DNA from: an archaeon
Lineage (GTDB): Archaea > Nanobdellota > Nanobdellia > Pacearchaeales > GW2011-AR1
DNA length: 64,000 nucleotides
Reading direction: 5' to 3'
NCBI GenBank assembly: GCA_030605415.1
Contig: JAUWIJ010000005.1
Location: 2,375-66,374 of the forward strand
How positions within the stretch are numbered: position 1 is the first letter of the stretch; each line of letters opens with the position of its first letter. Below the pieces are notes generated by a model. The model was not told the origin of the DNA and searched no databases. It saw only the letters and a list, made by a program, of their open reading frames with translations. Below, in pieces: positions 2,220 through 63,284 of the stretch. Position numbers and translations under genes: made by a program.

Positions 2220-2224
2220 TGCCT

Positions 2225-2410
2225 GGCACTGAGGTATTTGGTATTTGGGATTTGGGATTTGCAAGCGAGGGACACGAGCGAGGTATTTGGGATTTGGGAT
2301 TTGGGATTCGTGGGAGAGGGGAAGGGGAAACTGGTATTTGGGATTTGGGATTTGTGGGGACAGGGAACGGGGAAGCGAGGGACGAGACGAGGGATTTGGG
2401 ATTTGTGGAA
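2225..2410. repeat. mosaic repeat built from GGTATTT/GGGATTT heptamer arrays
   Basis: Runs of GGTATTT-GGGATTT-GGGATTT are separated by GAGGGACACGAGCGAGG-type linkers. Related copies lie at 54300-54480 and 60020-60095. Confidence 0.85.
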
Positions 2411-3465: not shown

Positions 3466-4467
3466 ATGACAGATAACAATGGAATACGAAGTGGAAGTTT
3501 GCAGTTTTACCCGAGGGTGCGAGCTAAGAAAGTTGTGCCTAGTGTGAATTGGAAACCGGTTTCCAAAGACGGTGTTGGGCTTATGGGTTTTGTTGGGTAT
3601 AAGGTTGGGATGATTTCTGTTTGGGCAAAAGACGGGACTGAGCATTCTATGACAAAAGGTAAAAGGATTTCTATTCCGGCGACTGTTGTTGAGTGTCCTG
3701 TTATGAAAATTTATTCGGTTCGATTCTATAAAAATGGGAAAGTGAGTAAAGACGTTGTTGTTTCTAATGATAAAGATTTGAAAAAGAGTGTTAAACTTTC
3801 TAAGTCGGTTGGTGAATTTAAGGATGTCGTCGCACCCAAGGGTGTACCTCCTGCCCAGATGGCATCTGCTGACGCAGACAAGGTCGGCAATTTTGACGAC
3901 GTTAGGGTGATTATGTATTCTGGCGTGAGAAAAACTTGTGTTGACAAAAACAAGGCAGATATGATTGAGGTTGGGGTTTCGGGTTCTAACGACGAGAAAC
4001 TGGCTTTTATTAAAGAGAATATTGGAAAGGAAATTTTGGTTGGTGATGTTTTTAGTGAAGGGCTCGTTGATGTTCGGGGTGTTACAAAAGGTTATGGAAC
4101 ACAGGGTCCTATGAAAAGATTTGGCATTGCATTGAAATCGCATAAGTCTGAAAAGGGAAGGCGAAGACCTGGCTCTTTGGCACCGTGGCATCCGTCGAGA
4201 GTTACTTTCCGAGCACCTCAGGCTGGGCAAACTGGTTATCATAATAGAATTAGTTATAATAATTTGATTTTAGAAATTGGTAAAATTAAAGAAAAGGATA
4301 TTAACAAGAAAGGTGGGTTTGAACATTATGGGGTTATTAAGACTGATTATATAATTTTGAAGGGTTCGATTCCGGGACCGAAGAAAAGAGGACTTATGGT
4401 TACTACTGCTATTAGACCAACTAAATATCTTGCTAAGAAAAAATTTGAGGTAATTGAGTTACGATGA
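3466..4467 (+). CDS. rpl3: 50S ribosomal protein L3 (uL3), with an in-frame repeat insertion
   Basis: GYKVGM, TKGYGTQGPMKRFG and HKSEKGRRRPGSLAPWHPSRV motifs; first gene of an L3-L4-L23-L2 order. Confidence 0.95.
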   Translation: MTDNNGIRSGSLQFYPRVRAKKVVPSVNWKPVSKDGVGLMGFVGYKVGMISVWAKDGTEHSMTKGKRISIPATVVECPVMKIYSVRFYKNGKVSKDVVVSNDKDLKKSVKLSKSVGEFKDVVAPKGVPPAQMASADADKVGNFDDVRVIMYSGVRKTCVDKNKADMIEVGVSGSNDEKLAFIKENIGKEILVGDVFSEGLVDVRGVTKGYGTQGPMKRFGIALKSHKSEKGRRRPGSLAPWHPSRVTFRAPQAGQTGYHNRISYNNLILEIGKIKEKDINKKGGFEHYGVIKTDYIILKGSIPGPKKRGLMVTTAIRPTKYLAKKKFEVIELR

Positions 4468-4742
4468 AAACAAGAACACAAAACGATAACTCTTTATGTG
4501 GACAAAACTTGCAGTGTTTAAATTATAATAAAGAAGGTTGTTTGATGTATCATACTGGTGTTTGTGATGGTATTATTACATGGGATAATAATCAGCAAGT
4601 TTATTTTGCTGGAGGTGAAAAAAATGGGAGATGTTATTCTTCTGACATTTTAGTGGTGAGAGTATTGGGATTTAAAAGAGCAAGAAAACAAACTAAACTT
4701 CTTGAAAATATTGCAGATAAATTGGGGGCTGACTTTTTATAA
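4464..4742 (+). CDS. orphan small Cys-rich protein inserted between L3 and L4
   Basis: ATGA overlap with the L3 stop and TAATG overlap with the L4 start. Flanked by a direct repeat of ATGAAAACAA (4464 and 4742). No family recognised. Confidence 0.55.
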   Translation: MKTRTQNDNSLCGQNLQCLNYNKEGCLMYHTGVCDGIITWDNNQQVYFAGGEKNGRCYSSDILVVRVLGFKRARKQTKLLENIADKLGADFL

Positions 4743-5573: not shown

Positions 5574-5963
5574 ATGTGGTGGAAAAAGAAGATTGTTGAA
5601 AGGAAGTTTGGGGACTTTAGGAAAGGAATAGAATATATGGATTATCTTGAAAGTATGGAAATATATCGCCGTAATGTAGTTAATATAAATAGTGATATAA
5701 AGACAAGAGTTCCTGTTAATTTAGAAGATCCAAAGGATATAGCTCAGGAACAAGAATGTATGGATGATTTTAAAAAAAGAGTTTTATTATTTGAAGATTG
5801 TTTTCAAAGTGCGTATAAAAAAGCACGAGATATAGAAGATGGATATGGATATGAATATAATAATAGAGGGAAATATGGATATAGGGGATTTGCTTGTGGA
5901 GCTGAAAGAGTATTAAAGGTTTTTGATGAAATTAAACAGGATACTTTGGAGAAACTTAAATAA
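5574..5963 (+). CDS. orphan protein inserted between L4 and L23
   Basis: ATG lies 1 nt after the L4 stop (internal Met of ORF-track 5487..5963). Flanked by a 12-nt direct repeat TTAAATAAAATG (5565 and 5956). Confidence 0.5.
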   Translation: MWWKKKIVERKFGDFRKGIEYMDYLESMEIYRRNVVNINSDIKTRVPVNLEDPKDIAQEQECMDDFKKRVLLFEDCFQSAYKKARDIEDGYGYEYNNRGKYGYRGFACGAERVLKVFDEIKQDTLEKLK

Positions 5964-6356: not shown

Positions 6357-7055
6357 ATGGGAAAGAGAATAATTCAACAGCGACGCGGAAGGGGTGGACA
6401 TACTTATAAGACCAGAGAGAAAGCTGGGAAAATTAGGCCAGGTTATGCTTCTGGTTTGAAGGGTGAATTTGAGTGTGTGAAACTGATTGCGTCGGTTGGG
6501 CATTCTGTTCCAATTGCAAAGTTCATGAATAAGGGCGGTGAGATCTTCCATAATTTTTCGGTTGATTTATTATATGTTGGGCAGAAAATTGGCATTAATG
6601 GAAATAAGCCGGGTGATATTGCGAAGCTTGGGGATTTGAAGAATGGGACTGAGGTTTTTAATATTGAGTATAATCCTAAGGATGGAGGAAAGTTTGTCAG
6701 AACTGGTGGGAATTTTGGGACAATTATGGCGAAAGAGGGAGATGTTGTTAAGATTATGATGCCGTCGAAAAAGGTGAAGAAATTTAACGTGAATTGCAGG
6801 GCGACTGTTGGTCGGGCTGCGGGAGATGGTAGAATGGATAAGCCGATTTTGAAGGCGGGTAAGAAGTTTTATATAATGAAAACAAAATCTAAATTATGGC
6901 CGAGAACTTCTGCTGTTAAGATGAATGCTATTGACCATCCGTTTGGTAGTGGTCGGGGGAAAAGAATGAAAAGTAAAATTGCTAAGAGAAATGCGTCGCC
7001 GGGTAAGAAGGTTGGTTTAATTAGACCGAGAAGAACAGGGAGGAAGAAAAGATGA
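6357..7055 (+). CDS. rpl2: 50S ribosomal protein L2 (uL2)
   Basis: MGKRIIQQRRGRGG start, DHPFGSGRGK motif, operon position. Confidence 0.95.
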   Translation: MGKRIIQQRRGRGGHTYKTREKAGKIRPGYASGLKGEFECVKLIASVGHSVPIAKFMNKGGEIFHNFSVDLLYVGQKIGINGNKPGDIAKLGDLKNGTEVFNIEYNPKDGGKFVRTGGNFGTIMAKEGDVVKIMMPSKKVKKFNVNCRATVGRAAGDGRMDKPILKAGKKFYIMKTKSKLWPRTSAVKMNAIDHPFGSGRGKRMKSKIAKRNASPGKKVGLIRPRRTGRKKR

Positions 7056-7154
7056 AATCTTCGATTGCATCTTTTCGGGTGGTCGGTGGTTCGGACGCTT
7101 CGCTGGTCGGTGTTCGGGGCTTGAGCAACTTGACATGGAGGGGGATGAAATAAA
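7052..7154 (+). repeat. mosaic intercistronic element, copy E2 (core-less)
   Basis: ATGAAATC overlaps the L2 TGA; degenerate hairpin; GGTCGGTGGTTCGGACGCTTCGCTGGTCGGTGTTCGGGGCTTGAGCAACT; GGAGGGGG before the next ATG. Confidence 0.9.
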
Positions 7155-7466
7155 ATGGCAATTTTAATGGATGGCATGGAAAGAGAAAGGGCATGTGTTT
7201 CTTATTTGGAATCTCTTGGGGTACTTGATAGTGAAAGTTTATGTCTTGCTGGGCATAAATATATACTTCGTGTAGATGATGAAGATTCTTTTTATCAAAT
7301 AGCAGAAGCTACTGGAGTTGATAGAATTATAAATTATGATGGTGATGGTTTGGATTTTGAGATACAAATTCCATCAAAACCGCGTAACGATACATGGTTT
7401 GTGTTTTTGAGTTATTGCAAAAGTGACGCTTTTTTAAATAAATATAATATAGGGGGAACACAATAA
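7155..7466 (+). CDS. orphan protein inserted between L2 and S19
   Basis: 103-aa ORF preceded by element E2 and followed 2 nt later by the S19 ATG. No family recognised. Confidence 0.5.
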   Translation: MAILMDGMERERACVSYLESLGVLDSESLCLAGHKYILRVDDEDSFYQIAEATGVDRIINYDGDGLDFEIQIPSKPRNDTWFVFLSYCKSDAFLNKYNIGGTQ

Positions 7467-7468
7467 TA

Positions 7469-7867
7469 ATGGTAGAAACAATACAAAAGAGAGATAAAAG
7501 CAAATTTTATCGGGGGAAGAAAACTGAAGAATTAAAATCGGTTGATACCCGGGAGTTTGCGAAGTTGGTTAAGGCTCGAGAGAGAAGAACGATTTTGAGA
7601 AACTATGATGTTATCGAGGCTTTTGTTGCGAAGTGTGAGAAAAACACTCTGAAAAATAAACCAATAAAAACCCATGATAGAAGTTTGGTTATTGTTCCAA
7701 AAATGGTCGGTAAAACTATTGGGGTTCATAATGGAAAGGAGTTTAGTAAGGTTGTCATTGTTGAAGAAATGTTGGGACATAGATTGGGTGAATTTTCTAT
7801 GACGAGAAAAATTGCAAAACATACATCCGTTGGAGGCGGAGCTAAAAAGAAGGTGGTAGATAAATAA
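7469..7867 (+). CDS. rps19: 30S ribosomal protein S19 (uS19)
   Basis: GKTIGVHNGKEF and GHRLGEFSMTRK motifs. Confidence 0.95.
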   Translation: MVETIQKRDKSKFYRGKKTEELKSVDTREFAKLVKARERRTILRNYDVIEAFVAKCEKNTLKNKPIKTHDRSLVIVPKMVGKTIGVHNGKEFSKVVIVEEMLGHRLGEFSMTRKIAKHTSVGGGAKKKVVDK

Positions 7868-7868
7868 A

Positions 7869-8501
7869 ATGGCAGCACCGAGTGTACCCTTGAAGGGCAA
7901 AGAAATAAAAGAAACTGCACCCAAGGGTGTACCTCCTGCCCGGATGGCATCCGATAAATCGGACAAGGTCGGCAAAGAAAAATCAAAAGTAGACGAGACT
8001 CCAAAAATGAAAACAGATGTTGAAAAAGTGGAAAATATTAAAGCCGAGAAAGGCAAGAAAAAAAAGATTGTTAAACAAAAGGAGATTTCTAAAAAGGATG
8101 TTGCGGTTGCTAATGGTTTTTCGTTGAAGATTTCGCCTAAGCAATCTAAATATATTATGAGAATTATTCGAGGCAAGAGTCCTGACAATGCCGTTGTAAG
8201 ATTGCAGGATGTTATTAGCGAGAAAAGAGTTGTTCCTATGGCTGGTTTGGAAGTTGGACATAAGAAAGGAAAAGGACTTGCTGGTGGTAAATTTCCGAAA
8301 AATGCGTGTAAGGCGATTATTGAGATTGTGAAGCAGGTTAAAGCTAATTCCATTATTGCTGGAATTGAGAATTCTGTGATTAGTATTGCCAGATCTGATA
8401 GGGCTTCGGCCCCGTATAGAAAGGCCGGGCGAAAAGCCAAGAGGACTCATATTCATATTGAGATTCGAGATAGAACTAAATCGATTGGGAAAGCAAAATA
8501 A
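7869..8501 (+). CDS. rpl22: 50S ribosomal protein L22 (uL22) with a long Lys-rich N-terminal extension
   Basis: C-terminal two thirds (ISPKQSKYIMRIIRGKS...HIHIEI) is L22. The N-terminus contains the 59-nt repeat shared with L3. Confidence 0.9.
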   Translation: MAAPSVPLKGKEIKETAPKGVPPARMASDKSDKVGKEKSKVDETPKMKTDVEKVENIKAEKGKKKKIVKQKEISKKDVAVANGFSLKISPKQSKYIMRIIRGKSPDNAVVRLQDVISEKRVVPMAGLEVGHKKGKGLAGGKFPKNACKAIIEIVKQVKANSIIAGIENSVISIARSDRASAPYRKAGRKAKRTHIHIEIRDRTKSIGKAK

Positions 8502-9193: not shown

Positions 9194-9431
9194 AAAAATT
9201 ATGACAGCGAAGGAAATGAAGAGAAAAATTATTGATTTGAAGATTGAGTTATTGAAAAATGTAACGAAAAGAAAAAGCATTAAAAAGGAAATTGCGCGGT
9301 TATTAACTATGGCAAGAAGCTCTGCTTCTCGGGGTGTCGGTGTTCGGGGTGTCGGGGTGTCGGATGCTGAAACAACTGGGAACAAGAAGGGAAAGAAAAG
9401 TAATACTAAATCGGATGGAGGGAGCAAGTAA
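9183..9431 (+). CDS. rpl29: 50S ribosomal protein L29 (uL29) with a repeat-derived C-terminal extension
   Basis: The KEMKRKIIDLKIELLK...IKKEIARLLT core is L29. The tail SSASRGVGVRGVGVSDA is encoded by GGTGTTC/GGGTGTC words. Confidence 0.85.
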   Translation: MVNKKIMTAKEMKRKIIDLKIELLKNVTKRKSIKKEIARLLTMARSSASRGVGVRGVGVSDAETTGNKKGKKSNTKSDGGSK

Positions 9432-9732
9432 AGTGGAAATTTGTCCGAAGTGTGGATTGCCTATGCCGGCGTGTGTTTGTGGCGAGATTGCCAAGACGCA
9501 ACAGCAAATTACTGTGAAAACGGAGACAAGGCGTTTCGGAAAAGTTAATACTATAATAAGTGGATTCGACGACGGTGTTAATATTAAAGACCTCGCAAAA
9601 AAGCTCAAAATGAAAAGGGCTTGTGGCGGAACGGTTAAAAATAAAATTATCGAATTGCAAGGAAATCACAAGAGCTTCATAAAACCTATTTTGGTTTCAG
9701 AAGGTTTTAGCGAGGACCAAATAAATGATTAA
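9415..9732 (+). CDS. translation initiation factor SUI1/aIF1
   Basis: N-terminal zinc knuckle CPKCGLPMPACVCG followed by the SUI1 fold pattern ITVKTETRRFGKVNTIISGF...LAKKLKMKRACGGTV. Start could also be GTG 9433. Confidence 0.85.
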   Translation: MEGASKVEICPKCGLPMPACVCGEIAKTQQQITVKTETRRFGKVNTIISGFDDGVNIKDLAKKLKMKRACGGTVKNKIIELQGNHKSFIKPILVSEGFSEDQIND

Positions 9733-10090
9733 AATGGTAAAGAAAAAAATTGATAAGAAAATTGAGAAGATTGAAGATGTCGAATGTAAGGATAGACTTT
9801 GTCCTAAGCATGGAGATAGAAAATTGAAGATGCGAGGTCGGACTTTTGAGGGTGTTGTGATTAGAAAGCGAAATACTCGGGTTACAATTCAGTTTGAGAG
9901 AATGTTGAAACTGCCGAAGTATGAGAGATATGAAAAAAGGAAAACGAAGATTCACGCGAGACTGCCTGACTGTATGAAAAATGATGTTGCGATTGGAGAC
10001 TTGATTCAGATTACAGAAACTCGACCAATTAGCAAGATGATTCACTTTGTTGTTGTTAAAGTTGTTAAAAAAGTGGAGGCTAAAATATGA
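9725..10090 (+). CDS. rps17: 30S ribosomal protein S17 (uS17)
   Basis: CPKHG, RGRTFEGVVI and GDLIQITETRPISK motifs. Confidence 0.92.
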   Translation: MIKMVKKKIDKKIEKIEDVECKDRLCPKHGDRKLKMRGRTFEGVVIRKRNTRVTIQFERMLKLPKYERYEKRKTKIHARLPDCMKNDVAIGDLIQITETRPISKMIHFVVVKVVKKVEAKI

Positions 10091-10217
10091 AATCAAAGAT
10101 TTCATATTTGCGGTGGTCGGTGGTCGGACGCTACCCTCACAGATATAAAGGAGAAACAGGTTGGGGCACACTGTTCGCTGGTCGGGGTTCGGGGCTTGAG
10201 CAACTGGAGGTACTGAA
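10087..10217 (+). repeat. mosaic intercistronic element, copy E3 (core-bearing)
   Basis: ATGAAATCAAAGATTTCAT overlaps the S17 TGA. The 42-nt core (10132-10173) interrupts GGACGC^TTCGCTGG. GGGGCTTGAGCAACT tail, then GGAGGT. Confidence 0.9.
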
Positions 10218-10577
10218 ATGAAAGGTAGAATAGAAACACAAAAGGCATTTAATAAAGAATCTTTAATTAATAACAAATGGTACAGGATAAATATTGGCTG
10301 TATTTATACAGAAGCAATGTGGGCTAATAACCTCCCTTTTGAAAAAGAGTGCTTTATTAGATTAAACACTGCAGATTATCAAAAAGGAATGGAAGGAAGG
10401 GATATAGAATGTTGGAATGGAGAGATAATTGGATTTTCAAGGGAAGGGAGTGTTCTAATTAATCCCAAAGAATATGGATTAGAATTTATTTACCCAAGAG
10501 ACCCACAATATAATTCTTTACTAGAACAAATGACAAAAACAAAGGAATTTAGAAAATTATTGGAGGTAAAGAAATGA
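10218..10577 (+). CDS. orphan protein inserted between S17 and L14
   Basis: 119-aa ORF with an ATGA overlap at the L14 start. Flanked by a 16-nt imperfect direct repeat, GGAGGTACTGAAATGA at 10206 and GGAGGTAAAGAAATGA at 10562. Confidence 0.5.
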   Translation: MKGRIETQKAFNKESLINNKWYRINIGCIYTEAMWANNLPFEKECFIRLNTADYQKGMEGRDIECWNGEIIGFSREGSVLINPKEYGLEFIYPRDPQYNSLLEQMTKTKEFRKLLEVKK

Positions 10578-10975
10578 GAGCAATAAGTGGAAGAGCGACG
10601 AGGAGTTTGAATATTGGGAGTTTGTTGGAGGCTTGTGATAATAGCGGGGCACGGATTTGTCGGATTGTTTCGATTAAGCATGGGAAAACTTCTAAGGGTC
10701 GGCAGGGTTATGCGAAAATTGCGGACTGGGTTAAGGTTTCAGTTAGAAAGGGCGACCCGAAAATGAAAGGAGAGGTTTTCGACGCTGTTCTTGTCAGGCA
10801 GAGAAAACCATGGAGAAGAAATACTGGAGAGCGAGTCTGTTTCAGCGATAATGCGGTTGCGCTTTTAAAAGACGAAAAAGGGAATCCAAAAGGAACACAG
10901 GTTAAAGGAGTTGTTGCTCGAGAGATTCAGGAAAGATGGAAGGAGGTTGCTAAAATTGCGGGGGGGGTATATTAA
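10574..10975 (+). CDS. rpl14: 50S ribosomal protein L14 (uL14)
   Basis: CDNSGAR and FDAVLVRQRKPWRR motifs. Confidence 0.95.
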   Translation: MRAISGRATRSLNIGSLLEACDNSGARICRIVSIKHGKTSKGRQGYAKIADWVKVSVRKGDPKMKGEVFDAVLVRQRKPWRRNTGERVCFSDNAVALLKDEKGNPKGTQVKGVVAREIQERWKEVAKIAGGVY

Positions 10976-10976
10976 G

Positions 10977-11447
10977 ATGAAATCAAAATTTAGTAAATCG
11001 TGGAATTCGAGTAAGCAACCGAGGAAGCAGGTTAAGTTTAGGGTGAATGCGCCGAATCATATTAAGCGGACATTTATGGGAACCACTTTAGATAAGCCAT
11101 TGAGAGAGAAATATGGGAGACGAAATATTGAAGTTAGAAAGGGCGACGAGGTTAAAGTTATGCGAGGGAAGTTTAAAGGGAAGCAGGGGAAAGTTGGAAG
11201 TGTTGATGTTAAAAGGACAAGGATTCAGATTGAGGGAATTCAGAGAGTTAAAGCTGGTGGGGAAAAGTTGATTACGTGGTTCCATCCGTCAAATGTTAAG
11301 ATAATTATTTTAGACAATGAGGATGCTCGGAGATTGAAACGCGGGAAGAAGGTAGTTGGGGAAACGGTATCCGCTGACGTGGACAAGGTCGACAAAATTA
11401 AGAAGACTGTTAAGAAAACTAAAAAAATAACTAAGGAGAAAAAATAA
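10977..11447 (+). CDS. rpl24: 50S ribosomal protein L24 (uL24)
   Basis: SKQPRKQ and KGDEVKVMRGKFKGKQGKV (KOW) motifs. Start at the internal Met of ORF-track 10911..11447. Confidence 0.92.
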   Translation: MKSKFSKSWNSSKQPRKQVKFRVNAPNHIKRTFMGTTLDKPLREKYGRRNIEVRKGDEVKVMRGKFKGKQGKVGSVDVKRTRIQIEGIQRVKAGGEKLITWFHPSNVKIIILDNEDARRLKRGKKVVGETVSADVDKVDKIKKTVKKTKKITKEKK

Positions 11448-12986: not shown

Positions 12987-13364
12987 ATGAGTCAAGATAT
13001 AGTAGCGGATGGGTTAAATCAGATAATGAACGCGAAGCAAATAGGGAAGATGGATATTGTTATTAAGCGGTGCTCTAAGGTCTTGTTGAATTTGTTTGAG
13101 ATAATGAAGGCGGAGGGTCATATTGATTATGAAGTTAATAAGGAAGAGAAAACGGTTAGTGTTAAGGTGATTAAACTGAATAAGTGCAGGGCGATTAAGC
13201 CGAGATATTATGTTGGCGTTGATGGTATTGATAAGTATATGAGGCGATTTTTGCCATCGAGGAATTTCGGCAGTTTGATTATCTCGACAAATATGGGATT
13301 ATTAAATCACAAAGATGCAATTAAAAATAAAGTAGGAGGAAGCGTTATCGCTTATTTTTACTGA
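12987..13364 (+). CDS. rps8: 30S ribosomal protein S8 (uS8)
   Basis: DIVADGLNQIMNA start and GGSVIAYFY end are typical of S8. Confidence 0.93.
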   Translation: MSQDIVADGLNQIMNAKQIGKMDIVIKRCSKVLLNLFEIMKAEGHIDYEVNKEEKTVSVKVIKLNKCRAIKPRYYVGVDGIDKYMRRFLPSRNFGSLIISTNMGLLNHKDAIKNKVGGSVIAYFY

Positions 13365-13552
13365 TGGTAGACGGAGTTGAGCGCTGTAATGATTGTATAT
13401 TTGAAGAAGGGGTCCTAAGAAATACGACCAAGAGCGTGGATGAAAGCTGTTATTGTATTCGTTTTGGGAAAACGAATTCAGATGGCGTAATAGGAGCTAA
13501 GGAATGTTCTATTAATCCTTATTATAAAACTAAGGGAGCCCAAAATGAATAA
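13364..13552 (+). CDS. orphan small Cys-rich protein inserted between S8 and L6
   Basis: TGATG overlap with the S8 stop and an 8-nt overlap (ATGAATAA) with the L6 start. 62 aa with 5 Cys. Confidence 0.45.
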   Translation: MVDGVERCNDCIFEEGVLRNTTKSVDESCYCIRFGKTNSDGVIGAKECSINPYYKTKGAQNE

Positions 13553-14087: not shown

Positions 14088-14190
14088 TGAAATCAAAGAT
14101 TTCATCATCGGTGTTCGGTGGTTCGGACGCTTCGCTGGTCGGTATTCGGGGCTTGGGCAACTGGATGTTATATTGGAGTGTTAAAATAAA
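14087..14190 (+). repeat. mosaic intercistronic element, copy E5 (core-less)
   Basis: TGATGAAATCAAAGATTTCATCA hairpin on the L6 stop; GGTGTTCGGTGGTTCGGACGCTTCGCTGGTCGGTATTCGGGGCTTGGGCAACT. Confidence 0.9.
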
Positions 14191-24177: not shown

Positions 24178-24258
24178 AAGAACTGGAAATTCAAAGCAGA
24201 ACTCAGGTCGTTTCACTCTTAGAGCTGAGAACTTAGAGGGAGAGGGGAATTCTGGGGA
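24178..24258. repeat. mosaic repeat (GAGAACT-type words, degenerate CGCTTCGCT motif)
   Basis: CAGAACTCAGGTCGTTTCACTCTTAGAGCTGAGAACTTAGAGGGAGAGGGG parallels 43095-43125. Confidence 0.7.
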
Positions 24259-39498: not shown

Positions 39499-40326
39499 TT
39501 ATTTTAGGATTTTTGTAGGATTTTTCTCAATGAAATTATTTATAGAGACGACTCTTTTGCCGGTTTTCTTTTCAATTTCTTTTTTCGCGTTTCCTGCGAT
39601 AGTGCCTCCTTCTTTTGCGATAACTTTGCTTTCTTCAAACCCCTTTGGTAATTTGTTTTTAGAAATCTCCGCCGTTGTAGCTTCGGCTAACATATTCAAA
39701 ACTAACTCTATATTACTCATATTGTCCCTTAATCCTTCTTTTTTTAAATTTTTGAAATTCTTATATTCTTTTGTAGTCATTTCTGACCATGCTTTAGAAA
39801 TTTCGTCTGTTAGAATTGCGAACTCCTTTCCTTTCTGAACACCTCTCTTTTCCCATTCGTTAGTCAAATCTTTTCTAATTTCAATAGATTTCAATCTTTG
39901 GTTAATCCATTCTTTTGAATAGCCCTTTTCTAGATAAGTCTTAAGCGCTCGATTAATTGCAAGTTCGGGGTCAGCCGTTTCGTTAATTCTCTCATTTCCA
40001 ACATTTGCAAGCCATAATTTAAATGGTTCGGCTTTCTTTGATGGAATAGACTGAACTAATCTCAAAATTTGCTTAGTTGTTCCAACGTCTGTTAAATAAT
40101 ATTTTCCATCAGGGGCTTTCAATTTCAGTTGGTTACAATTTGTAACCAACTGACTTCCTTCTTTTTTAAGCCTATATTTGAGAACCTTCCAATAATTTCG
40201 TGGATTGGGGCTATCTGTTAAAATGTCAATAATGTCCACAATACTAAACAACCATTCTTCGTCCTCGCTAATCCATGCATGACGGATTTCTTTTCCTTTG
40301 AATATAAGTTTTTTTGGCTTAATCAT
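39499..40326 (-). CDS. DinD/Bro-N-like DNA-damage-inducible-type protein
   Basis: Overall architecture and motifs (N-terminal Bro-N-like region, C-terminal NIELVLNMLAEATTAEI...GGTIAGNAKKEIE) resemble E. coli DinD-type proteins. Confidence 0.55.
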   Translation of the reverse strand: MIKPKKLIFKGKEIRHAWISEDEEWLFSIVDIIDILTDSPNPRNYWKVLKYRLKKEGSQLVTNCNQLKLKAPDGKYYLTDVGTTKQILRLVQSIPSKKAEPFKLWLANVGNERINETADPELAINRALKTYLEKGYSKEWINQRLKSIEIRKDLTNEWEKRGVQKGKEFAILTDEISKAWSEMTTKEYKNFKNLKKEGLRDNMSNIELVLNMLAEATTAEISKNKLPKGFEESKVIAKEGGTIAGNAKKEIEKKTGKRVVSINNFIEKNPTKILK

Positions 40327-43056: not shown

Positions 43057-43067
43057 TTATTAAGAAA

Positions 43068-43325
43068 TTAGGTCGCTTCGCTCCCAAATCTCAGAACTGA
43101 GGTCGTTTCACTCTGAGAACTTAGACCGCTTCGCTCTTTGCTTTAGAACTGAGACCGCTCATTTCATTCGCTCTTAGAACTGAGTACCCTCACCTATATA
43201 AAAGAAAAATAGGTTGGGGCAGACTCACCGCTTCGCTCTGAGAACTGCCCCCCGCTTCCCCTCTAAGTTCTCAGTTCTGAGTTCTTGCCAAAGATAGATA
43301 AATAGTTGTTAAAGGTTATGGATTA
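43068..43325. repeat. large composite mosaic element (CGCTTCGCT x3, AGAACT words, one core, conserved 3' tail)
   Basis: Core at 43185-43221. Left AGAACTGAG/GAGAACTTAGA words are mirrored on the right by CTCTAAGTTCTCAGTTCTGAG. Near-duplicate at 63285-63590. Confidence 0.9.
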
Positions 43326-46328: not shown

Positions 46329-46414
46329 GCGTGGATAGTTTAGAGGAAGAATAATTGGCTTCCATAATCTTTTGAAGAGACCAATTGACCGGGGTTCGAG
46401 TCCCCGTCCGCGCA
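46329..46414 (+). tRNA. tRNA, anticodon most likely UCC (Gly), with a 15-nt intron after position 37
   Basis: Hand fold: acceptor GCGTGGA/TCCGCGC; D arm GTTT..GAAT; anticodon stem ATTGG/CCAAT; loop CT-TCC-A then intron TAATCTTTTGAAGAG (46365-46379); T arm CGGGG-TTCGAGT-CCCCG; discriminator A. Confidence 0.7.
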
Positions 46415-46556
46415 TTGAGGGAATGCCTCTGTTGTTCGTAAAATACATTTCGCAAAAATATTTTTGAATTTTGTTTTGCTCAAAGTGTTTCACTCAGTCA
46501 AACGCCCGCTTGCCCACTCCAAATATTTTTATACTCTGATTTTTGTATTTTATAAT

Positions 46557-46639
46557 GAGAGAATGCCGGAGTGGTCAAACGGGGCAGACTCAAAATCTGT
46601 TGGCTTATGCCTACGGGGGTTCGAATCCTCCTTCTCTCA
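46557..46639 (+). tRNA. tRNA-Leu (CAA)
   Basis: Acceptor GAGAGAA/TTCTCTC, anticodon loop CTCAAAA, long variable arm TGGCTTATGCCTAC, T loop TTCGAAT. Confidence 0.85.
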
Positions 46640-46644
46640 TTTAT

Positions 46645-46726
46645 TCGAATCCTGTGTTTCGATTCCTTGCTTGTGAGATTTATCGAGTCAAGCAGCGAGG
46701 ATTTTTAATCTGACGCCCTTCTCTCA
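46645..46726 (+). other. second copy of the 19-nt tRNA-Leu 3' end, split by a 63-nt insert
   Basis: TCGAATCCT (46645-46653) plus CCTTCTCTCA (46717-46726) concatenate to exactly TCGAATCCTCCTTCTCTCA, which is 46621-46639. Confidence 0.75.
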
Positions 46727-46762
46727 TTAACTTTTTATATTAAGTATTTTTCAATTAATTAT

Positions 46763-46837
46763 GCCCTTGTAGCTCAGTTGGATTAGAGTGCTTCCCTCCT
46801 AAGGAAGATGTCGCAGGTTCAAGTCCTGCCAAGGGCG
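46763..46837 (+). tRNA. tRNA-Arg (CCU)
   Basis: GCCCTTG/CAAGGGC acceptor, AGCTCAGTTGGATTAGAG D arm, anticodon stem CTTCC/GGAAG with loop CTCCTAA, T loop TTCAAGT. Confidence 0.85.
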
Positions 46838-46896
46838 TATTGAAATATATTTTTAACTATAACAATTCTTAAAAAGTTGTTTTTATGATATAAAAT

Positions 46897-47238
46897 ATGG
46901 GAAATTATAACATAGCCAAGGAAAGTTTTAGGAAGTTAGACAAAAGGGATATTGTAGAATATATAGCAGATAAAATTCCTTTTGTAGGATTACGCTTGAA
47001 GATGGAAAGATTGAAAGAGAAAAGGCAGGTTATTTTGTGTGATTTGGAAAAAGAAATATTTAGTGGCTCAAGAGATATTAATATGGTGGATATTGTCATG
47101 GTGGATAAAATAATGGTTGCACATAATCAAGAAAATATTAATAATGTACAAGGTAATCATTATTTATTTGGAGCGTTTTGTGGCGTCAGTGGACTGATTG
47201 GCATAGGATATGCTCTTGGAAATTATTTTGCCAATTAG
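46897..47238 (+). CDS. hypothetical protein with a C-terminal TM helix
   Basis: 113-aa ORF; C-terminal YLFGAFCGVSGLIGIGYALGNYF. Confidence 0.4.
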   Translation: MGNYNIAKESFRKLDKRDIVEYIADKIPFVGLRLKMERLKEKRQVILCDLEKEIFSGSRDINMVDIVMVDKIMVAHNQENINNVQGNHYLFGAFCGVSGLIGIGYALGNYFAN

Positions 47239-47288
47239 TTATTTTTCACAATCGGCAGTTTTATAAACGAAGATTTTCTATCAAAATT

Positions 47289-47395
47289 AGACGGCCATAG
47301 TAATTTGGTTACACCTGATCCCATCCCGAACTCAGAAGTTAAGCTTATTACGTTCGTGTTTGTACTGTCTTTGATGGGAACACACGGAGCTGTCT
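47289..47395 (+). rRNA. rrf: 5S ribosomal RNA (short, about 107 nt)
   Basis: CCCATCCCGAACTCAGAAGTTAAGC loop B/C signature; terminal helix AGACGGC/GCTGTCT; followed by a T-run. Confidence 0.85.
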
Positions 47396-47439
47396 GTTTA
47401 TTTTTTTAAATAAAGATAGATAACTATTTATATAAATCT

Positions 47440-47846: not shown

Positions 47847-48620
47847 ATGGAAAGAGGGAGGGAGATAATTAGATTGCGAGATGTTTCGAGGCATTACCCG
47901 ATGGGGGATTCTGTTGTGAAAGCTCTTAGTCATTTGGAGTTTAAGGTTTTTAAAGGGGAGTTTGTGGCGATTATGGGACCGAGTGGTTCTGGAAAATCCA
48001 CAATGATGAATCTTGTCGGGAGTTTGGATATGCCTACTTATGGTGCGATTTATTTGGATGGCGGTGATATTTCGGAACTGGACGAATCTGACTTGGCGCA
48101 AATTAGGGGGAAGAAGATTGGGTTTATTTTTCAGTCGTTTAATTTGATTCCTAATTTGACGGTGAAGGAAAATGTGATGTTGCCGATGATGTTTCAGGGG
48201 ACAGATATTGATGATAGGATGGATAGGGCAGAGGAACTTTTAGGACTAGTTGATTTGGAGGATAGGATGGACCATTACCCCGGAGAAATTTCTGGTGGCG
48301 AAATGCAGAGGGTTGCGATTGCGCGGAGTTTGGCGAATGACCCTGAAGTTATTTTGGCTGATGAGCCGACTGGGAATCTGGACACTAAGACCGGGACGAT
48401 TGTTATGGAATTTTTGGAAAAGTTAAACAAACAGGGGAAGACTGTTATTATGGTTACTCACGATTCTGATTTAGCTGAAGAGTATGCCGATGTTGTTTAT
48501 TGGCTTTTGGATGGGAAACTTGATAAGGTTACTAAGAGAGTTGGGAAAAGATTTGTTGATGTTACGAAGAAGAAAAAGAAGGAAGATAGGGAAACTACTA
48601 AGAAAAAGAGGAGAAAATAA
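47847..48620 (+). CDS. ABC transporter ATP-binding protein (MacB/LolD-type)
   Basis: Walker A GPSGSGKST, signature ISGGEMQRVAIARSL, Walker B ILADEPTGNLD. Confidence 0.92.
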   Translation: MERGREIIRLRDVSRHYPMGDSVVKALSHLEFKVFKGEFVAIMGPSGSGKSTMMNLVGSLDMPTYGAIYLDGGDISELDESDLAQIRGKKIGFIFQSFNLIPNLTVKENVMLPMMFQGTDIDDRMDRAEELLGLVDLEDRMDHYPGEISGGEMQRVAIARSLANDPEVILADEPTGNLDTKTGTIVMEFLEKLNKQGKTVIMVTHDSDLAEEYADVVYWLLDGKLDKVTKRVGKRFVDVTKKKKKEDRETTKKKRRK

Positions 48621-49840
48621 TGAGGCTTGATCATTTAATTCTGGCGTTGAAGAATTTGAGGCATCGTGGAATTCGTTCTTGGTTGACTTTGCTTGGGATT
48701 TTTATTGGCGTGACCGCTGTTGTTTCTTTGATGAGTTTGGGTGCTGGGTTGCAGGCGGCGGTTGGCGCTCAATTTGGAATCAGTTCTACAGAAGTTATAA
48801 CTGTTCAGGCAGGGGGGGTTAATGCTTTTGGCGCACCTGGAAGCGGGGCTGTTGATCGTCTGACAAATGCCGATGTTCGAGCCATTGAAAGTTTGTCTAG
48901 TGTAGATTTAGCCATCGGAAGAAATATCGAGACATTTAAAGTAGAATATAATGACCGGGTTGTATTTAATATGGGGGCGGGATTTCATGAGGGAGAAAAA
49001 GGGAAATGGGATTATGAGATGCAAGATATCGAAGCGGAAAAAGGACGGCTTCTGCAGGCGGGAGATAGAAAAAAGGTTATCTTGGGGTATAACTATATGT
49101 TTGAGGATAAAAATGGTTTTGATAAAGCGGTGCAAGTAGGCGATAAGATAAATTTGAATGATGTTTCTTTTAGAGTTGTTGGGATAATGAGCAAAAAGGG
49201 TAGTCTTATTATTGATAATATTATTGGGATTACAATTGATGATTTGGACGACCTTGTAGATAATGAAGATTATGTCGACGTTGTTTCTGTTAAGGTTAAA
49301 CGAAGTGATTTAATGGATAAGGCAGTAGGGGATATTACTAAGTTATTGAGGGACAGGAGAGATGTCGACGAGGGAGAAGAGGATTTTGAAGTTTCTACTC
49401 CGGAGGCAATGATGGAAACTGTTAATAGTATTCTTGGGGGCGTTCAGGCTTTTATTATAATTATTGCATCGATTTCAATTTTGGTCGGGGCGCTTGGAAT
49501 TGTTAATACGATGACGGCTTCTGTTTTGGAAAGGAGAAAAGAGATTGGAATTATGAAAGCGATTGGCGCTACAAATTTTCAGGTTTTTTTGCAGTTCTTT
49601 TTTGAGTCTGGGATGTTGGGTTTTATTGGTGGCTTGATTGGTGTGATTTTTGGGACTTTGATTGGTGTTGCGGGAATTATGGGAATTAATAGTTATCTTG
49701 GGGCGGAACTTTCTTTTGTGATTGATTTTGTGTTGATTGCGGGAGCTTTGATTGGAAGTTTTGTGGTTGGAGCCGTTGCGGGGATTGTTCCGGCGATGAG
49801 TGCAGCTAAACAAAATCCGGTGGAGGCGCTACGAGGATGA
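48620..49840 (+). CDS. ABC transporter permease (MacB-like periplasmic domain + FtsX domain)
   Basis: N-terminal TM, large extracytoplasmic domain, C-terminal FtsX TM bundle (ERRKEIGIMKAIGAT). Confidence 0.88.
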   Translation: MRLDHLILALKNLRHRGIRSWLTLLGIFIGVTAVVSLMSLGAGLQAAVGAQFGISSTEVITVQAGGVNAFGAPGSGAVDRLTNADVRAIESLSSVDLAIGRNIETFKVEYNDRVVFNMGAGFHEGEKGKWDYEMQDIEAEKGRLLQAGDRKKVILGYNYMFEDKNGFDKAVQVGDKINLNDVSFRVVGIMSKKGSLIIDNIIGITIDDLDDLVDNEDYVDVVSVKVKRSDLMDKAVGDITKLLRDRRDVDEGEEDFEVSTPEAMMETVNSILGGVQAFIIIIASISILVGALGIVNTMTASVLERRKEIGIMKAIGATNFQVFLQFFFESGMLGFIGGLIGVIFGTLIGVAGIMGINSYLGAELSFVIDFVLIAGALIGSFVVGAVAGIVPAMSAAKQNPVEALRG

Positions 49841-49924
49841 AATTAAAATCAAAGATTTTAATTTCGGTGTTCGGTGTTCGGTGTTCGGTGTTCGGTGACT
49901 TGGGCAACTTAAGGAGGTTCGGGA
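49837..49924 (+). repeat. mosaic intercistronic element, copy E8 (core-less, four GGTGTTC heptamers)
   Basis: ATGA overlap with the permease stop; 12-bp hairpin GAAATTAAAATC-AAA-GATTTTAATTTC; (GGTGTTC)x4; CTTGGGCAACT tail; AGGAGG. Confidence 0.9.
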
Positions 49925-51136
49925 ATGGTGATTAGTAAAGAGAGTGTGAAATATTCTTTGAATAATATTAAGAAAAGCAAGGCGAGAAGTGTGCTTACGA
50001 TTTTATCTATTTTTGTTGGGATTGCTACGATTTTTATTTTTGTTAGTTTTGGGTGGGGACTTTATGATTATATTGATGAGTTTACTTCGTCGTCGTCGGC
50101 AGATAAGTTGATGATTATGCCCAAGGGTGGTCTTATTCCTGGTCTGGATACGACGTTTAAACTTTTGGATGATGACGTGGAGGCGATTAAAAAAACGGCA
50201 GGGGTTTATGAGGCGACGGGAGTGCATATGGGTGTAGCTGAGGTGATACAAGGCGATTCGAAAAAATATGTATTTGTTGCAAGTTACGATCCTGACTTAC
50301 CGATGATAATGGAACTTTCTGACGTTGAGGTAGTTGAGGGACGGGCTCTTCGGGATGGCGATTCTGGGAAGGTTACTTTGGGATATAATTATATGATTAA
50401 GAATAAAATTTTCCCTAAAGCGTATTCTTTGAATAGTAAAATTAATGTGCAGGGGCAGGATCTTCGGGTCGTCGGGTTTTACGAGAAAATTGGGAACCCG
50501 CAGGATGATTCTAATATTTATGTGACGAATGATTTTGTGTCTGAGCTTTATCCGGATAAAATTATTTCTTATGGTATGATAATTGCGCGGGCGGATAAGG
50601 ATAATGTTGATGAGGTCGGTGAAAGGGTTGAGAAGAAGCTGGGGCAGTTTAGAGATTTGGACGAAGGGAAAGAGGATTTTACCGTCGAGTCTTACGCCGG
50701 CTTGTTGGAATCTTATATGATTGTTTTGGATATTATTGTCGGGTTTATTATTTTGATTGCTTTAATTTCCGTACTTGTGTCGGCGGTTAATACTGCGAAT
50801 ACTATGATTACTTCGGTGCTTGAGAGATTTAAGGAGATTGGGGTTTTGAAATCTATTGGCGCCCGGAATAGTGAAATTTTTAAGATATTTTTATTTGAGT
50901 CTGGGTTTCTTGGATTTGTCGCTGGGGTGATTGGAGTTTTGGCTGGATGGGGAATGACGATTTTTGCGGCGAATGCTTTGGATAGTTTTGGATATGGGTT
51001 TTTGAGTCCGCATTATTCCTGGGTTTTGTTTAGCGGGCTGGTTTTATTTGCAACTTTAACTGGTGCGATTTCTGGGATGATTCCAGCTTGGAGAGCGAGT
51101 AAGATTAATGCTGTTGATGCGCTTCGCTACGAGTAA
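49925..51136 (+). CDS. ABC transporter permease (second MacB/FtsX-type subunit)
   Basis: Same architecture as 48620..49840 (ERFKEIGVLKSIGAR). Confidence 0.88.
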   Translation: MVISKESVKYSLNNIKKSKARSVLTILSIFVGIATIFIFVSFGWGLYDYIDEFTSSSSADKLMIMPKGGLIPGLDTTFKLLDDDVEAIKKTAGVYEATGVHMGVAEVIQGDSKKYVFVASYDPDLPMIMELSDVEVVEGRALRDGDSGKVTLGYNYMIKNKIFPKAYSLNSKINVQGQDLRVVGFYEKIGNPQDDSNIYVTNDFVSELYPDKIISYGMIIARADKDNVDEVGERVEKKLGQFRDLDEGKEDFTVESYAGLLESYMIVLDIIVGFIILIALISVLVSAVNTANTMITSVLERFKEIGVLKSIGARNSEIFKIFLFESGFLGFVAGVIGVLAGWGMTIFAANALDSFGYGFLSPHYSWVLFSGLVLFATLTGAISGMIPAWRASKINAVDALRYE

Positions 51137-54179: not shown

Positions 54180-54341
54180 ATGGCAAAAAAATGTATTTAT
54201 TGTTCTGTGGAAATTGATTCTGGTTCGGTTGTTGACATATGCCAGCGTTGTATGTATCAGGTTTGGGGTGAGAAGATGACGAAGGCGATTGTCGAGGGAA
54301 TGGAGAAAGAGAGGGACACGAGCGAGGCATTTGGGACATAA
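54180..54341 (+). CDS. small zinc-ribbon protein (53 aa) whose C-terminus and stop lie in the heptamer repeat
   Basis: My translation is [53 protein letters not shown]. Below the ORF-track size cutoff. Confidence 0.45.
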
Positions 54342-54480
54342 GCGAGGGATTTGGTATTTGGGATTTGGGATTCGTGGGGAACGGGAGCGGGGACAGGGGA
54401 GCGAGGTATTTGGCATTTGGGATTTGGAATTCGTGGGAACGGGGAAACTGAGGAAGGGGGAAGTTGGTAGTGGGGTTGAT
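54300..54480. repeat. mosaic repeat with GGTATTT/GGGATTT heptamers
   Basis: GAGGGACACGAGCGAGGCATTTGGGA and GGTATTTGGGATTTGGGATTCGTGGGG parallel 2255-2320. Confidence 0.85.
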
Positions 54481-57402: not shown

Positions 57403-57508
57403 TGAAATCAGAGATTTCATCATCGGTGTTCGGACGCTTCGCTGTTCGGTGTTCGGACGCTTCGCTGTTCGGGGCTTGGCGGTTAAGTAAAGTTGGGGGA
57501 ATGAAATA
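57399..57508 (+). repeat. mosaic intercistronic element, copy E7 (core-less, two GGACGCTTCGCTGTTCGG units)
   Basis: ATGATGAAATCAGAGATTTCATCA hairpin on the S11 stop. GGTGTTCGGACGCTTCGCTGTTCGG occurs twice. GGGGCTTGGCGG tail variant. Confidence 0.88.
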
Positions 57509-63219: not shown

Positions 63220-63284
63220 GTATTTTGATTTTCGTCTAACCGAATAACTATTATTTTGTTTGATGTGGTTGGTTTATATGATTA

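What the first reader, a model, noticed from the sequence alone, without database searches (positions are those of the whole stretch)
10206..10577. Cassette D is flanked by a 16-nt imperfect repeat of SD plus ATGA and preceded by an element
GGAGGTACTGAAATGA (10206-10221) and GGAGGTAAAGAAATGA (10562-10577) match at 14 of 16 positions. The first is the 3' end of element E3, and the second drives L14. Excising 10206-10561 would leave element E3 feeding directly into L14, as elements do at other junctions. This links the two phenomena: orphan cassettes may insert at the element's SD/ATG module. A looser version (AGGGGGA...ATAA.ATGG) flanks cassette C at 7137-7157 and 7450-7471.
Basis: seen in the sequence. 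Interest (0 to 1): 0.65.

Follow-up and report, generated by a model that had tools for sequence, protein, structure and literature searches.

The report
Shared ribosome-binding modules flank an inserted gene
The two similar 16-base stretches are mostly the ribosome-binding and stop/start-overlap signals that every gene in this archaeal ribosomal-protein operon carries, but the rare gene they flank is one of many small inserted genes that differ between sister species.

Summary
The repeat is real: 14/16 identical, extending to 17/20 (10205-10224 vs 10561-10580). Ten of the 16 positions are functional consensus: the ribosome-binding (Shine-Dalgarno, SD) motif GGAGGT, a 6-nt spacer, and an ATGA stop/start overlap. 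This exact pattern occurs four times in the window, always at gene junctions. Unrelated junction pairs (L5/L30, L29/S4e) also reach 14/16. The likeness is therefore borderline as a sign of duplication.

The setting is a Pacearchaeota-like (DPANN archaea) ribosomal-protein operon. In 47 of 79 relatives S17 and L14 overlap directly by ATGA. Here a lineage-specific mosaic repeat (E3) and a 119-codon gene (orfD) sit between them.

orfD has only two homologues among 1.84 billion representative proteins. Both lie in the same operon at a different junction (S19|L22), flanked by their hosts' own junction style (TAAAATG). The GGAGGT..ATGA repeats therefore belong to the site, not to the cassette.

The sister species has E2 feeding S19 directly where the window has E2-orfC-S19. 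It also carries other cassettes at junctions without any element.

Flank duplications inferred from empty sites vary from 6 to at least 16 nt, so this is not a fixed-length target duplication.

The wider cassette turnover is the interesting part.

The parts
9725..10090 (+). Ribosomal protein S17 gene. Its last 16 nt (10075-10090, GGAGGCTAAAATATGA) are a third SD+ATGA module.
   Evidence: Pfam Ribosomal_S17, E 6.5e-18. Module listed. In relatives this tail directly drives L14.
10083..10109 (+). Perfect 12-bp hairpin (AAATATGAAATC / GATTTCATATTT, 3-nt loop) that encloses S17's stop codon and the ATG of the bridging reading frame. It is the 5' module of element E3.
   Evidence: Inverted repeat I2, 100% complementary. 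It is the only robust stem in the RNA fold. The copy at 49843 keeps the stem through two compensatory changes.
10087..10221 (+). Element E3: a lineage-specific mosaic repeat (hairpin, GGTGKTCGG heptads, 42-nt core, GGGGCTTGRGCAACT). It is read through by a 44-codon frame that starts on S17's stop (ATGA) and ends on orfD's start (ATGA).
   Evidence: nhmmer match 10085-10212, E 2.7e-40. 90% identical to E6 over 10067-10208. Only frame 0 is open; P is about 0.09 by shuffling. No Rfam match.
10132..10173 (+). 42-nt (14-codon) nested core, TACCCTCAC...GGGGCACACTG, with imperfect terminal inverted repeats.
   Evidence: Nine copies in the window. It is exactly present or absent between the window's E4 and the sister species' E4. 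It is absent from E2 and E5.
10206..10221 (+). Left 16-mer GGAGGTACTGAAATGA: SD motif, 6-nt spacer, orfD start overlapping the stop of the E3 frame.
10218..10577 (+). orfD ('cassette D'), 119 codons, GC 0.30. A real but very rare gene family.
   Evidence: It fills the gap exactly, with ATGA overlaps at both ends. Exhaustive phmmer finds only P0002 (46% identity, E 8e-18) and P0003 (37%, E 1e-13), with 36 invariant columns. No hit in Pfam, PHROGs, PADLOC, PDB or phages. GC.
10548..10577 (+). 3' tail of orfD (TTTAGAAAATTATTGGAGGTAAAGAAATGA = FRKLLEVKK*). It is junction-specific, lies beyond the homology with P0002/P0003, and resembles the S17 tails of relatives.
   Evidence: Alignment A1. Its best score among about 1,200 gene tails is with an S17 tail; S17 tails as a class score higher (Mann-Whitney U test, P 6e-7). 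The sister species' S17 tail is ATTAGAAAATTGGAGGT.
10562..10577 (+). Right 16-mer GGAGGTAAAGAAATGA: SD motif, spacer, L14 start overlapping orfD's stop.
10574..10975 (+). Ribosomal protein L14 gene.
   Evidence: Pfam Ribosomal_L14, E 1.3e-31.
7052..7466 (+). The parallel case: element E2 (7052-7154) followed by cassette orfC (7155-7466) in front of S19.
   Evidence: The sister species L193 has L2-E2-S19 without orfC. The breakpoint overlap is about 6 nt (AATGGC).

Best explanation
The two 16-mers are the translational-coupling modules of two consecutive genes, orfD and L14. Each consists of an SD motif (GGAGGT) inside the tail of the preceding reading frame, a 6-nt A-rich spacer, and an ATGA in which the upstream stop overlaps the downstream start. 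Ribosomes finishing one frame restart on the next.

The ancestral S17|L14 junction was a single such overlap. In this lineage it now holds two inserts: mosaic repeat E3 and the rare accessory gene orfD. Each is read through, so the chain S17 -> E3 frame -> orfD -> L14 stays unbroken.

The likeness of the two modules is mainly consensus that any surviving insert in this highly expressed operon must carry or acquire. A short duplication or microhomology around the start codon (ATGA[A/G]AG, perhaps with the SD motif) may have arisen when orfD was placed. It is not a fixed-length target-site duplication and does not depend on the element.

Shown here: the modules, the overlaps, the insert status, the rarity of the family, its presence at another junction, and the variable flank overlaps.

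Inferred: coupling by termination-reinitiation, selection as the cause of the likeness, and exchange of cassettes by homologous recombination through the flanking ribosomal-protein genes.
For: - GGAGGTN6ATGA occurs 4 times, only at junctions. Nearly every junction has GGAGG- or GGGGG-like bases 5-10 nt before an ATG that overlaps or abuts a stop.
- Unrelated pairs are equally alike.
- S17/L14 overlap by ATGA in 47 of 79 relatives.
- In relatives, 69 of 84 gaps of 150-700 nt are at least 90% one forward open frame, against 3 of 84 on the reverse strand and 2 of 84 after shuffling.
- All 8 elements carry a frame running from the upstream stop to the downstream start (E2's ends 1 nt before it); the other two frames are closed in all but E1 and E2.
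- orfD's homologues lie at S19|L22 and carry their host's TAAAATG junctions. Both ends of the protein are junction-specific.
- Breakpoint overlaps are 6, 10, at least 13 and at least 16 nt.
- Identity between the window and the sister species is mosaic: orfB 99%, L4 87%, S17 86%, SUI1 95%.
- Termination-reinitiation at ATGA overlaps with intragenic SD motifs has been shown experimentally in an archaeon (PMC6728339).
Against: - At fixed register the pair is in the top 0.6% of module pairs.
- Taken together, the flanks of 10 cassettes are somewhat more alike than random junction pairs: mean 10.7 vs 8.9, P = 0.022. Across 64 cassettes in relatives the figures are 8.44 vs 8.08 of 16, P = 0.03. Some duplication or microhomology signal therefore seems real.
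- Two cassettes in the sister species (cas138, cas75) show flanks that copy the empty site over at least 13-16 nt, in one case across reading frames.
- No translation data exist for this organism.
Confidence: 0.58

Rival explanations
1. E3 first sat between S17 and L14 with its tail driving L14. Cassette D then inserted at that SD/ATG module, which was duplicated like a target site or attachment site, so the two 16-20-mers are true copies.
For: - 17/20 identity, in the top 0.6% of module pairs.
- orfD begins ATGAAAGG, like the usual L14 start ATGAAAGC in relatives, and has two extra N-terminal residues relative to P0002/P0003.
- The analogous empty site exists for cassette C: E2 feeds S19 in L193.
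- There is a weak collective excess of flank similarity.
Against: - No S17-E3-L14 site was found among 80 genomes, the closest assemblies, or a metagenome scan.
- E3/E6 homology stops at 10208, and E6's own tail differs.
- For cassette C the right-hand module is not a copy of E2's tail: it has indels, and only about 6 nt overlap the empty site.
- Duplication lengths vary from 6 to at least 16 nt.
- Most cassettes have no element.
- The 14 nt upstream of the right copy look like an S17 tail, not like E3.
Confidence: 0.2
2. The right-hand module is the retained ancestral S17-tail/L14 junction. orfD was placed inside the 3' end of S17 with a roughly 27-34-nt duplication (about -27 to +7) that rebuilt S17's tail, or it was imported by recombination together with another lineage's S17-like tail. 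E3 entered later between S17 and orfD. On this view the likeness of E3's edge to the L14 module is secondary.
For: - orfD's tail TTAGAAAATT(ATT)GGAGGT matches the S17 tails of L193, L013 and L005 (16/16 plus one 3-nt indel). Its best hit among about 1,200 tails is an S17 tail, and S17 tails score higher as a class (P 6e-7).
- Homology with P0002/P0003 ends just before this tail.
- cas138 in the sister species likewise ends in a copy of L14's tail, read in another frame.
Against: - The window's own S17 tail is only 12/16 (17/26) like it.
- L5, L29 and L24 tails also score 15-16, so generic 'A-rich + TTGGAGG' features explain part of the match.
- AAATT may be the cassette's own ..KF.. codons.
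Confidence: 0.15
3. Pure coincidence between two A-rich, SD-bearing junctions, with no shared history and no selection beyond that acting on any gene start.
For: Four of 703 module pairs reach 14/16, two of them clearly unrelated. 7.5% of random junction pairs reach the same local score.
Against: The pattern of gap-filling frames and exact overlaps is far from random. The collective flank excess has P of about 0.02-0.03.
Confidence: 0.07

Closest known systems
Termination-reinitiation junctions of overlapping gene pairs (ATGA/TGATG with an intragenic SD motif); Huber et al. 2019, PMC6728339
   Same: 4-nt ATGA stop/start overlap; an SD motif inside the upstream frame 6 nt before the start; the setting is ribosomal-protein operons. 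The hairpin over the restart codon would block de novo initiation, as that paper proposed for E. coli gene pairs.
   Different: Here the chain is relayed through inserted, non-conserved frames (a 44-codon repeat-encoded frame and an orphan gene). Coupling has not been measured in this organism.
Target-site duplications of transposable elements and MITEs
   Same: Direct repeats immediately flank an insert that is absent from relatives.
   Different: There are no terminal inverted repeats at orfD's ends and no transposase among the ORFs checked in the window. Inferred overlap lengths vary (6, 10, at least 13, at least 16 nt). The repeated bases coincide with functional signals.
Integron gene cassettes (attC x attI, IntI)
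   Same: Promoter-less, co-oriented small ORFs of unknown function are stacked in an expressed array. Content differs between close relatives, and the same family appears at different positions.
   Different: No attC-like palindrome at cassette 3' ends. No integrase among 20 large ORFs checked. Cassettes are interleaved singly between essential genes rather than stacked at one attI site.
Rickettsia palindromic elements (RPE): selfish repeats inserted in frame in coding genes (Ogata et al. 2000, from my own knowledge; reviewed in PMC10969869, found; I did not read the text)
   Same: Short multi-copy repeats with palindromic parts are tolerated because they keep reading frames open. The 42-nt core lies in frame inside L18, and other 30-60-nt repeats lie in frame in L3, L22 and L29.
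   Different: The sequence family is unrelated and the host is archaeal. Here most copies lie between genes as bridging frames rather than inside proteins.
REP/BIME mosaic intergenic repeats of enterobacterial operons (from my own knowledge)
   Same: Mosaic, multi-copy, hairpin-bearing repeats lie between co-transcribed genes.
   Different: REP/BIME elements are untranslated. These elements always carry an open frame linking the two neighbouring genes.

Membership tests
Termination-reinitiation (translational coupling) junction | Stop codon of the upstream frame overlaps or abuts the start codon of the downstream gene (ATGA, TAATG) | tested here: met
   ATGA at 10087-10090, 10218-10221 and 10574-10577.
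Termination-reinitiation (translational coupling) junction | SD-like motif within the upstream frame, 5-10 nt before the start | tested here: met
   GGAGG(C/T) lies 6 nt before each of the three starts. The 16S rRNA 3' end is not in the window, so complementarity is assumed rather than checked.
Termination-reinitiation (translational coupling) junction | Downstream translation depends on upstream translation | not testable with these tools
   This needs reporter assays or ribosome profiling. Indirect support: 69 of 84 inserts in relatives keep one forward frame open, and all 8 elements carry a frame from the upstream stop to the downstream start.
Transposon-type target-site duplication | Near-identical direct repeats directly flanking the insert | tested here: inconclusive
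   14/16 and 17/20, but equally similar unrelated junction pairs exist.
Transposon-type target-site duplication | Constant duplication length across insertions of the same kind | tested here: not met
   Overlaps with sister-species empty sites are 6 nt (orfC), 10 nt (orfA), at least 16 nt (cas138) and at least 13 nt (cas75).
Transposon-type target-site duplication | An empty site with a single copy of the repeat in a relative | tested here: not met
   For orfD none was found. Relatives have either the direct S17|L14 overlap or other cassettes. It is met for orfC (E2|S19 in L193).
Transposon-type target-site duplication | Terminal inverted repeats and/or a transposase | tested here: not met
   No inverted repeats at orfD's ends. 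No transposase among the cassettes or the 20 large ORFs checked.
Integron cassette array | attC recombination site (imperfect palindrome) at the 3' end of each cassette | tested here: not met
   No such inverted repeat in 10060-10640.
Integron cassette array | Adjacent tyrosine-recombinase integrase and attI site | tested here: not met
   None among the 20 largest non-ribosomal ORFs of the window. The rest of the genome was not seen.
In-frame selfish repeats (RPE-like), applied to E3 and its core | Multi-copy short repeat with palindromic ends that keeps host reading frames open | tested here: met
   Nine element copies by nhmmer plus four core-only matches, and nine cores in all. The core is 42 nt (14 codons). 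It is open in three different frames, including inside L18, where TATAAA has become TACAAA. This is a functional resemblance only; the sequence is unrelated to Rickettsia RPEs.
Known structured RNA families (Rfam) | Match to a covariance model | tested here: not met
   No match at gathering scores over the window (other than 5S rRNA and tRNAs), and none at E <= 1 over 9900-10700.

The most novel reading that the evidence does not exclude
The start-codon junction modules of translationally coupled operons (SD motif, spacer, ATG plus the first few codons) act as de facto attachment sites. A pool of promoter-less mini-genes uses them to hop between junctions of the ribosomal-protein operon in Pacearchaeota-like archaea. 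This would be an integron-like cassette system without attC or integrase. Each insertion duplicates part of the junction, so it keeps the coupling chain intact and can later be excised precisely.
Probability: 0.15. Interest if true: 0.8.

Novelty: new variant of a known kind. Interest (0 to 1): 0.5.

Why it matters
The repeat itself is ordinary. It shows what a coupling junction looks like and why two junctions in one operon resemble each other.

What lies around it is less ordinary. One of the most conserved gene arrays in biology is loaded here with six orphan genes and six translated mosaic repeats. About 10% of junction observations in 80 related genomes hold such gap-filling frames. Content differs between sister species that share 83-99% DNA identity across the shared genes. 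At least two cassette families occupy different junctions in different genomes.

If the junction modules really guide insertion, this would be a simple, enzyme-free route for new genes to gain instant high expression. It would also be a natural system for studying gene birth and selfish DNA under the constraint of translational coupling.

Tried and rejected
- orfD as a known operon member (RNase P protein Rpp29 or similar): no Pfam hit at E <= 0.1.
- orfD as a viral or defence gene: no hit in PHROGs, PADLOC, phage tblastn or viral contigs.
- Function from structure: the AlphaFold model built from a 3-sequence alignment has pLDDT 54. Foldseek finds nothing with E below 0.4 (TM about 0.2), and the PDB profile search finds nothing.
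- E3 as a known RNA or tRNA-like gene: no Rfam or ARAGORN match. The whole-element fold is not better than shuffles (z -0.64); only the 5' hairpin is robust.
- Finding more element copies: the metagenome scan with TCGGGGCTTGRGCAACT gave 106 chance hits and no real element. The E3-encoded peptide has only E6's peptide as a relative among 5.8 billion proteins. Among 80 relatives, only L003 and L020 have one copy each.
- Element-cassette association: 2 of 6 elements precede cassettes against about 1.2 expected by chance, which is not significant (my arithmetic).
- A tandem-duplication origin of cassettes (downstream 5' end fused to upstream 3' end): rejected because cassette interiors are unrelated to their neighbours and orfD has homologues elsewhere.
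- A general 16-nt flank duplication in 64 older cassettes: only 8.44 vs 8.08 of 16.

Full report
**1. The observation.**
The window region 3.4-19.6 kb is an archaeal-type ribosomal-protein operon on the + strand, running from L3 to SecY. Between S17 (9725-10090) and L14 (10574-10975) lie a 44-codon frame (10087-10221) and a 119-codon ORF, orfD (10218-10577).

The two 16-mers read exactly as reported and match at 14/16. The match extends to 17/20 over 10205-10224 vs 10561-10580. Each contains GGAGGT, six bases, then ATGA, in which the stop of the preceding frame overlaps the next start.

**2. Is it more than chance?**
- The pattern GGAGGTN6ATGA occurs four times in 64 kb against 0.18 expected. 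All four are gene junctions: orfD, L14, S8, and the S5 stop/E6 start.
- I listed the -12..+4 module of 38 starts in the operon. Nearly all have a GGAGG- or GGGGG-like stretch and an ATG that overlaps or abuts a stop.
- Of 703 module pairs, 4 reach 14/16: orfD/L14, L5/L30, L29/S4e and the E3/E6 heads. Nine reach 13/16.
- Given the shared Shine-Dalgarno (SD) motif, spacing and ATGA, the residual likeness is 4 of 6 spacer bases. I estimate P at about 0.09.
- With local alignment of the -30..+15 segments, the pair scores 14, and 7.5% of random junction pairs do as well.

The repeat is real but only borderline beyond the functional consensus.

**3. What the two inserts are: E3.**
E3 belongs to a mosaic repeat family with eight further element copies in the window: E1 at 6223, E2 at 7052, E4 at 12865, E5 at 14087, E6 at 16655, and copies near 20626, 49837 and 57399. 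The modules are:
- a hairpin over the upstream stop and ATG (ATGAAATCnnnGATTTCAT);
- GGTGKTCGG heptads;
- an optional 42-nt core, TACCCTCAC..GGGGCA;
- GGGGCTTGRGCAACT;
- then an SD motif and ATG.

The core is an independent nested insertion of exactly 14 codons. It is present in the window's E4 and absent from the sister species' E4.

In the eight elements that sit between two coupled genes, a frame runs from the ATG on the upstream stop to the downstream start. The other two frames are closed in all but E1 and E2. The per-element probability is 0.05-0.17 by shuffling.

Only the 12-bp 5' hairpin is a robust RNA structure. There is no Rfam match.

The family is confined to this lineage. Among 80 relatives, one copy each occurs in L003 and L020. 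None was found in a metagenome scan or among 5.8 billion proteins.

E3/E6 homology (90%) ends at 10208, so the 16-mer sits at or beyond the conserved edge of the element.

**4. What the two inserts are: orfD.**
orfD has no Pfam, PHROG, PADLOC, PDB or phage match. A word-indexed search of 5.8 billion proteins found only orfD itself.

An exhaustive phmmer search against 1.84 billion cluster representatives found two true homologues: P0002 (46% identity, E 8e-18) and P0003 (37%, E 1e-13). A third hit is a repetitive artefact.

The three-way alignment has 36 invariant columns, so this is a real protein family. The structure model is of low confidence and uninformative.

Both homologues lie in ribosomal-protein operons of distant relatives (L14 64% identical), but between S19 and L22. 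There they are flanked by the TAAAATG junction style that those genomes use at many junctions.

Homology ends at ...YNSLLEQMTKTKEF. orfD's first residues (MKGR) and last residues (RKLLEVKK*) are specific to this junction.

**5. State of the junction in relatives.**
I compared 80 genomes of Pacearchaeota, Woesearchaeota and Nanoarchaeota (L14 95-68% identical). In 47 of the 79 with a complete S17|L14 junction, S17 and L14 overlap by ATGA. Thirteen have inserts of 169-683 nt there. None has orfD.

Inserts of at least 90 nt occur at most junctions, for example 18 of 80 at L14|L24. They make up roughly 10% of about 1,160 junction observations.

Of 84 gaps of 150-700 nt, 69 are at least 90% covered by a single forward open frame. 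The figure is 3 on the reverse strand and 2 after shuffling.

Few of these frames are related to one another. One family occurs at L23|L2 in L042 and at L2|S19 in L077.

The window's cassettes have GC 0.30-0.33 (orfE 0.38), against 0.34-0.46 for its ribosomal-protein genes.

**6. The sister species.**
L193 (same species as L003; SUI1 95% and L14 91% DNA identity to the window) gives the whole operon.
- It lacks orfA, E1, orfC, E3+orfD, E5, orfF and the gene pair between L15 and SecY.
- It shares orfB.
- It has its own cassettes at S17|L14 (cas99), L14|L24 (cas138), S4e|L5 (cas75) and S8|L6 (cas66).

A more distant relative (L192) carries a 38%-identical homologue of cas99 at S17|L14. The window's E3+orfD therefore most likely replaced a cas99-type cassette.

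Identity between the window and L193 is mosaic: orfB 99%, L4 87%, S17 86%, SUI1 95%. This points to homologous recombination between lineages, a simple route for swapping whatever lies between conserved genes.

**7. Tests of the insertion-signature idea.**
- For cassette C the predicted empty site exists. In L193, E2 feeds S19 directly, and the window's left flank is identical to it through ATGGC. The right-hand module differs by indels, and only about 6 nt are shared.
- For orfA the shared stretch is ATGAAAACAA (10 nt).
- For cas138 it is at least 16 nt and is read in a different frame by the cassette.
- For cas75 it is at least 13 nt and includes L5's first codons.
- The flanks of ten cassettes are collectively a little more alike than random junction pairs: 10.7 vs 8.9, P = 0.022.
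- Across 64 cassettes in relatives the excess is 8.44 vs 8.08 of 16, P = 0.03.

There is therefore a weak signal of duplication or microhomology around the start codon, with variable length. It is independent of elements, since most cassettes have none.

**8. A competing origin for the right-hand module.**
The 30 nt before L14's ATG resemble the S17 tails of other lineages. TTAGAAAATT(ATT)GGAGGT compares with ATTAGAAAATTGGAGGT in L193, L013 and L005. The best score among about 1,200 gene tails is with an S17 tail, and the class effect has P 6e-7. Tails of L5, L29 and L24 also score fairly high, so this is suggestive rather than proven.

**9. Conclusion.**
Its main cause is that both 16-mers are coupling modules of the kind shown experimentally to mediate termination-reinitiation (PMC6728339). 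A contribution from a short junction duplication cannot be excluded.

The more general idea, that small orphan genes enter and leave at start-codon junctions of this operon, is supported and is the part worth following up.

Noticed in passing
window 6273, 10132, 12894, 15321, 16700, 20649, 43185, 63319, 63421 (each about 42 nt): A 42-nt (14-codon) mini-element, TACCCTCAC..ATATAAA..GGTTGGGGCA, with imperfect inverted ends occurs nine times. It is exactly present or absent between the window's E4 and the sister species' E4. It also lies in frame inside the L18 gene (15321), where TATAAA has become TACAAA and so avoids a stop codon.
   Followed up: partly
window 3832-3890 (L3), 7917-7975 (L22), 11366-11395 (L24): A 59-nt stretch encoding APKGVPPA(Q/R)MAS..DKVG is 88% identical in L3 and L22 and is partly present in L24's tail. 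The sister species' L3 lacks these 19 residues, so this is an in-frame repeat insertion in essential ribosomal proteins.
   Followed up: partly
window 7872-7904 (L22 N-terminus); L193 12788-12830 (L32e) and 14100-14130 (S5): A second in-frame mini-repeat, GCAGCACCGAGTGTACCCTTGAAGGGCAARGAA (AAPSVPLKGKE), sits at the N-terminus of L22 in the window. In the sister species it sits at the N-termini of L32e and S5.
   Followed up: partly
window 9340-9385 (3' part of L29): L29 has a C-terminal extension built from the same GGTGTCGG heptads as the intergenic elements (..RGVGVRGVGVSDAETTG..). It is longer than in the sister species.
   Followed up: no
window 2220-2410 and 54330-54450; 21160-21215, 24197-24245, 43062-43295, 63280-63540: Other heptad-repeat arrays occur in intergenic regions: (GGGATTT)n and (AGAACTY)n. 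The AGAACTY arrays flank core copies as long inverted arms at 43.1-43.3 kb and 63.3-63.5 kb.
   Followed up: no
window 5574-5963 (orfB) vs L193 4335-4724: Cassette orfB is 99% identical to the sister species' copy, while the flanking L4 gene is only 87% identical and L23 is 95%. This mosaic points to recent recombination or transfer of this segment.
   Followed up: partly
window 17650-18194: Two small overlapping ORFs (85 and 96 aa; weak DUF7515 and Gp49/toxin-like hits) lie between L15 and SecY. They are absent from the sister species and may be a toxin-antitoxin-like pair.
   Followed up: partly
window 4464-4742, 7155-7466, 13364-13552, 15568-15819: Four further gap-filling orphan ORFs (orfA, orfC, orfE, orfF) have no Pfam, PHROG or PADLOC match. 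orfA, orfC and orfF are absent from the sister species, and a different ORF occupies orfE's junction there.
   Followed up: partly
window 49837-49927 and 57399-57512: Element copies also bridge non-ribosomal gene pairs (two FtsX/MacB-like permease genes at 48620-51136, and 57016-57402 | 57509-57814). They again carry an open frame from the upstream stop to the downstream start. The 49843 copy keeps the 5' hairpin through two compensatory base changes.
   Followed up: partly
window 39502-40326 (- strand): An ORF with a BRO-N domain (usually viral or phage-associated) lies inside a glycosylation gene cluster (about 22-43 kb).
   Followed up: no
window 46329-47398: Three tRNA genes lie next to a 5S rRNA gene. 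ARAGORN calls only two of the three tRNAs that Rfam finds.
   Followed up: no
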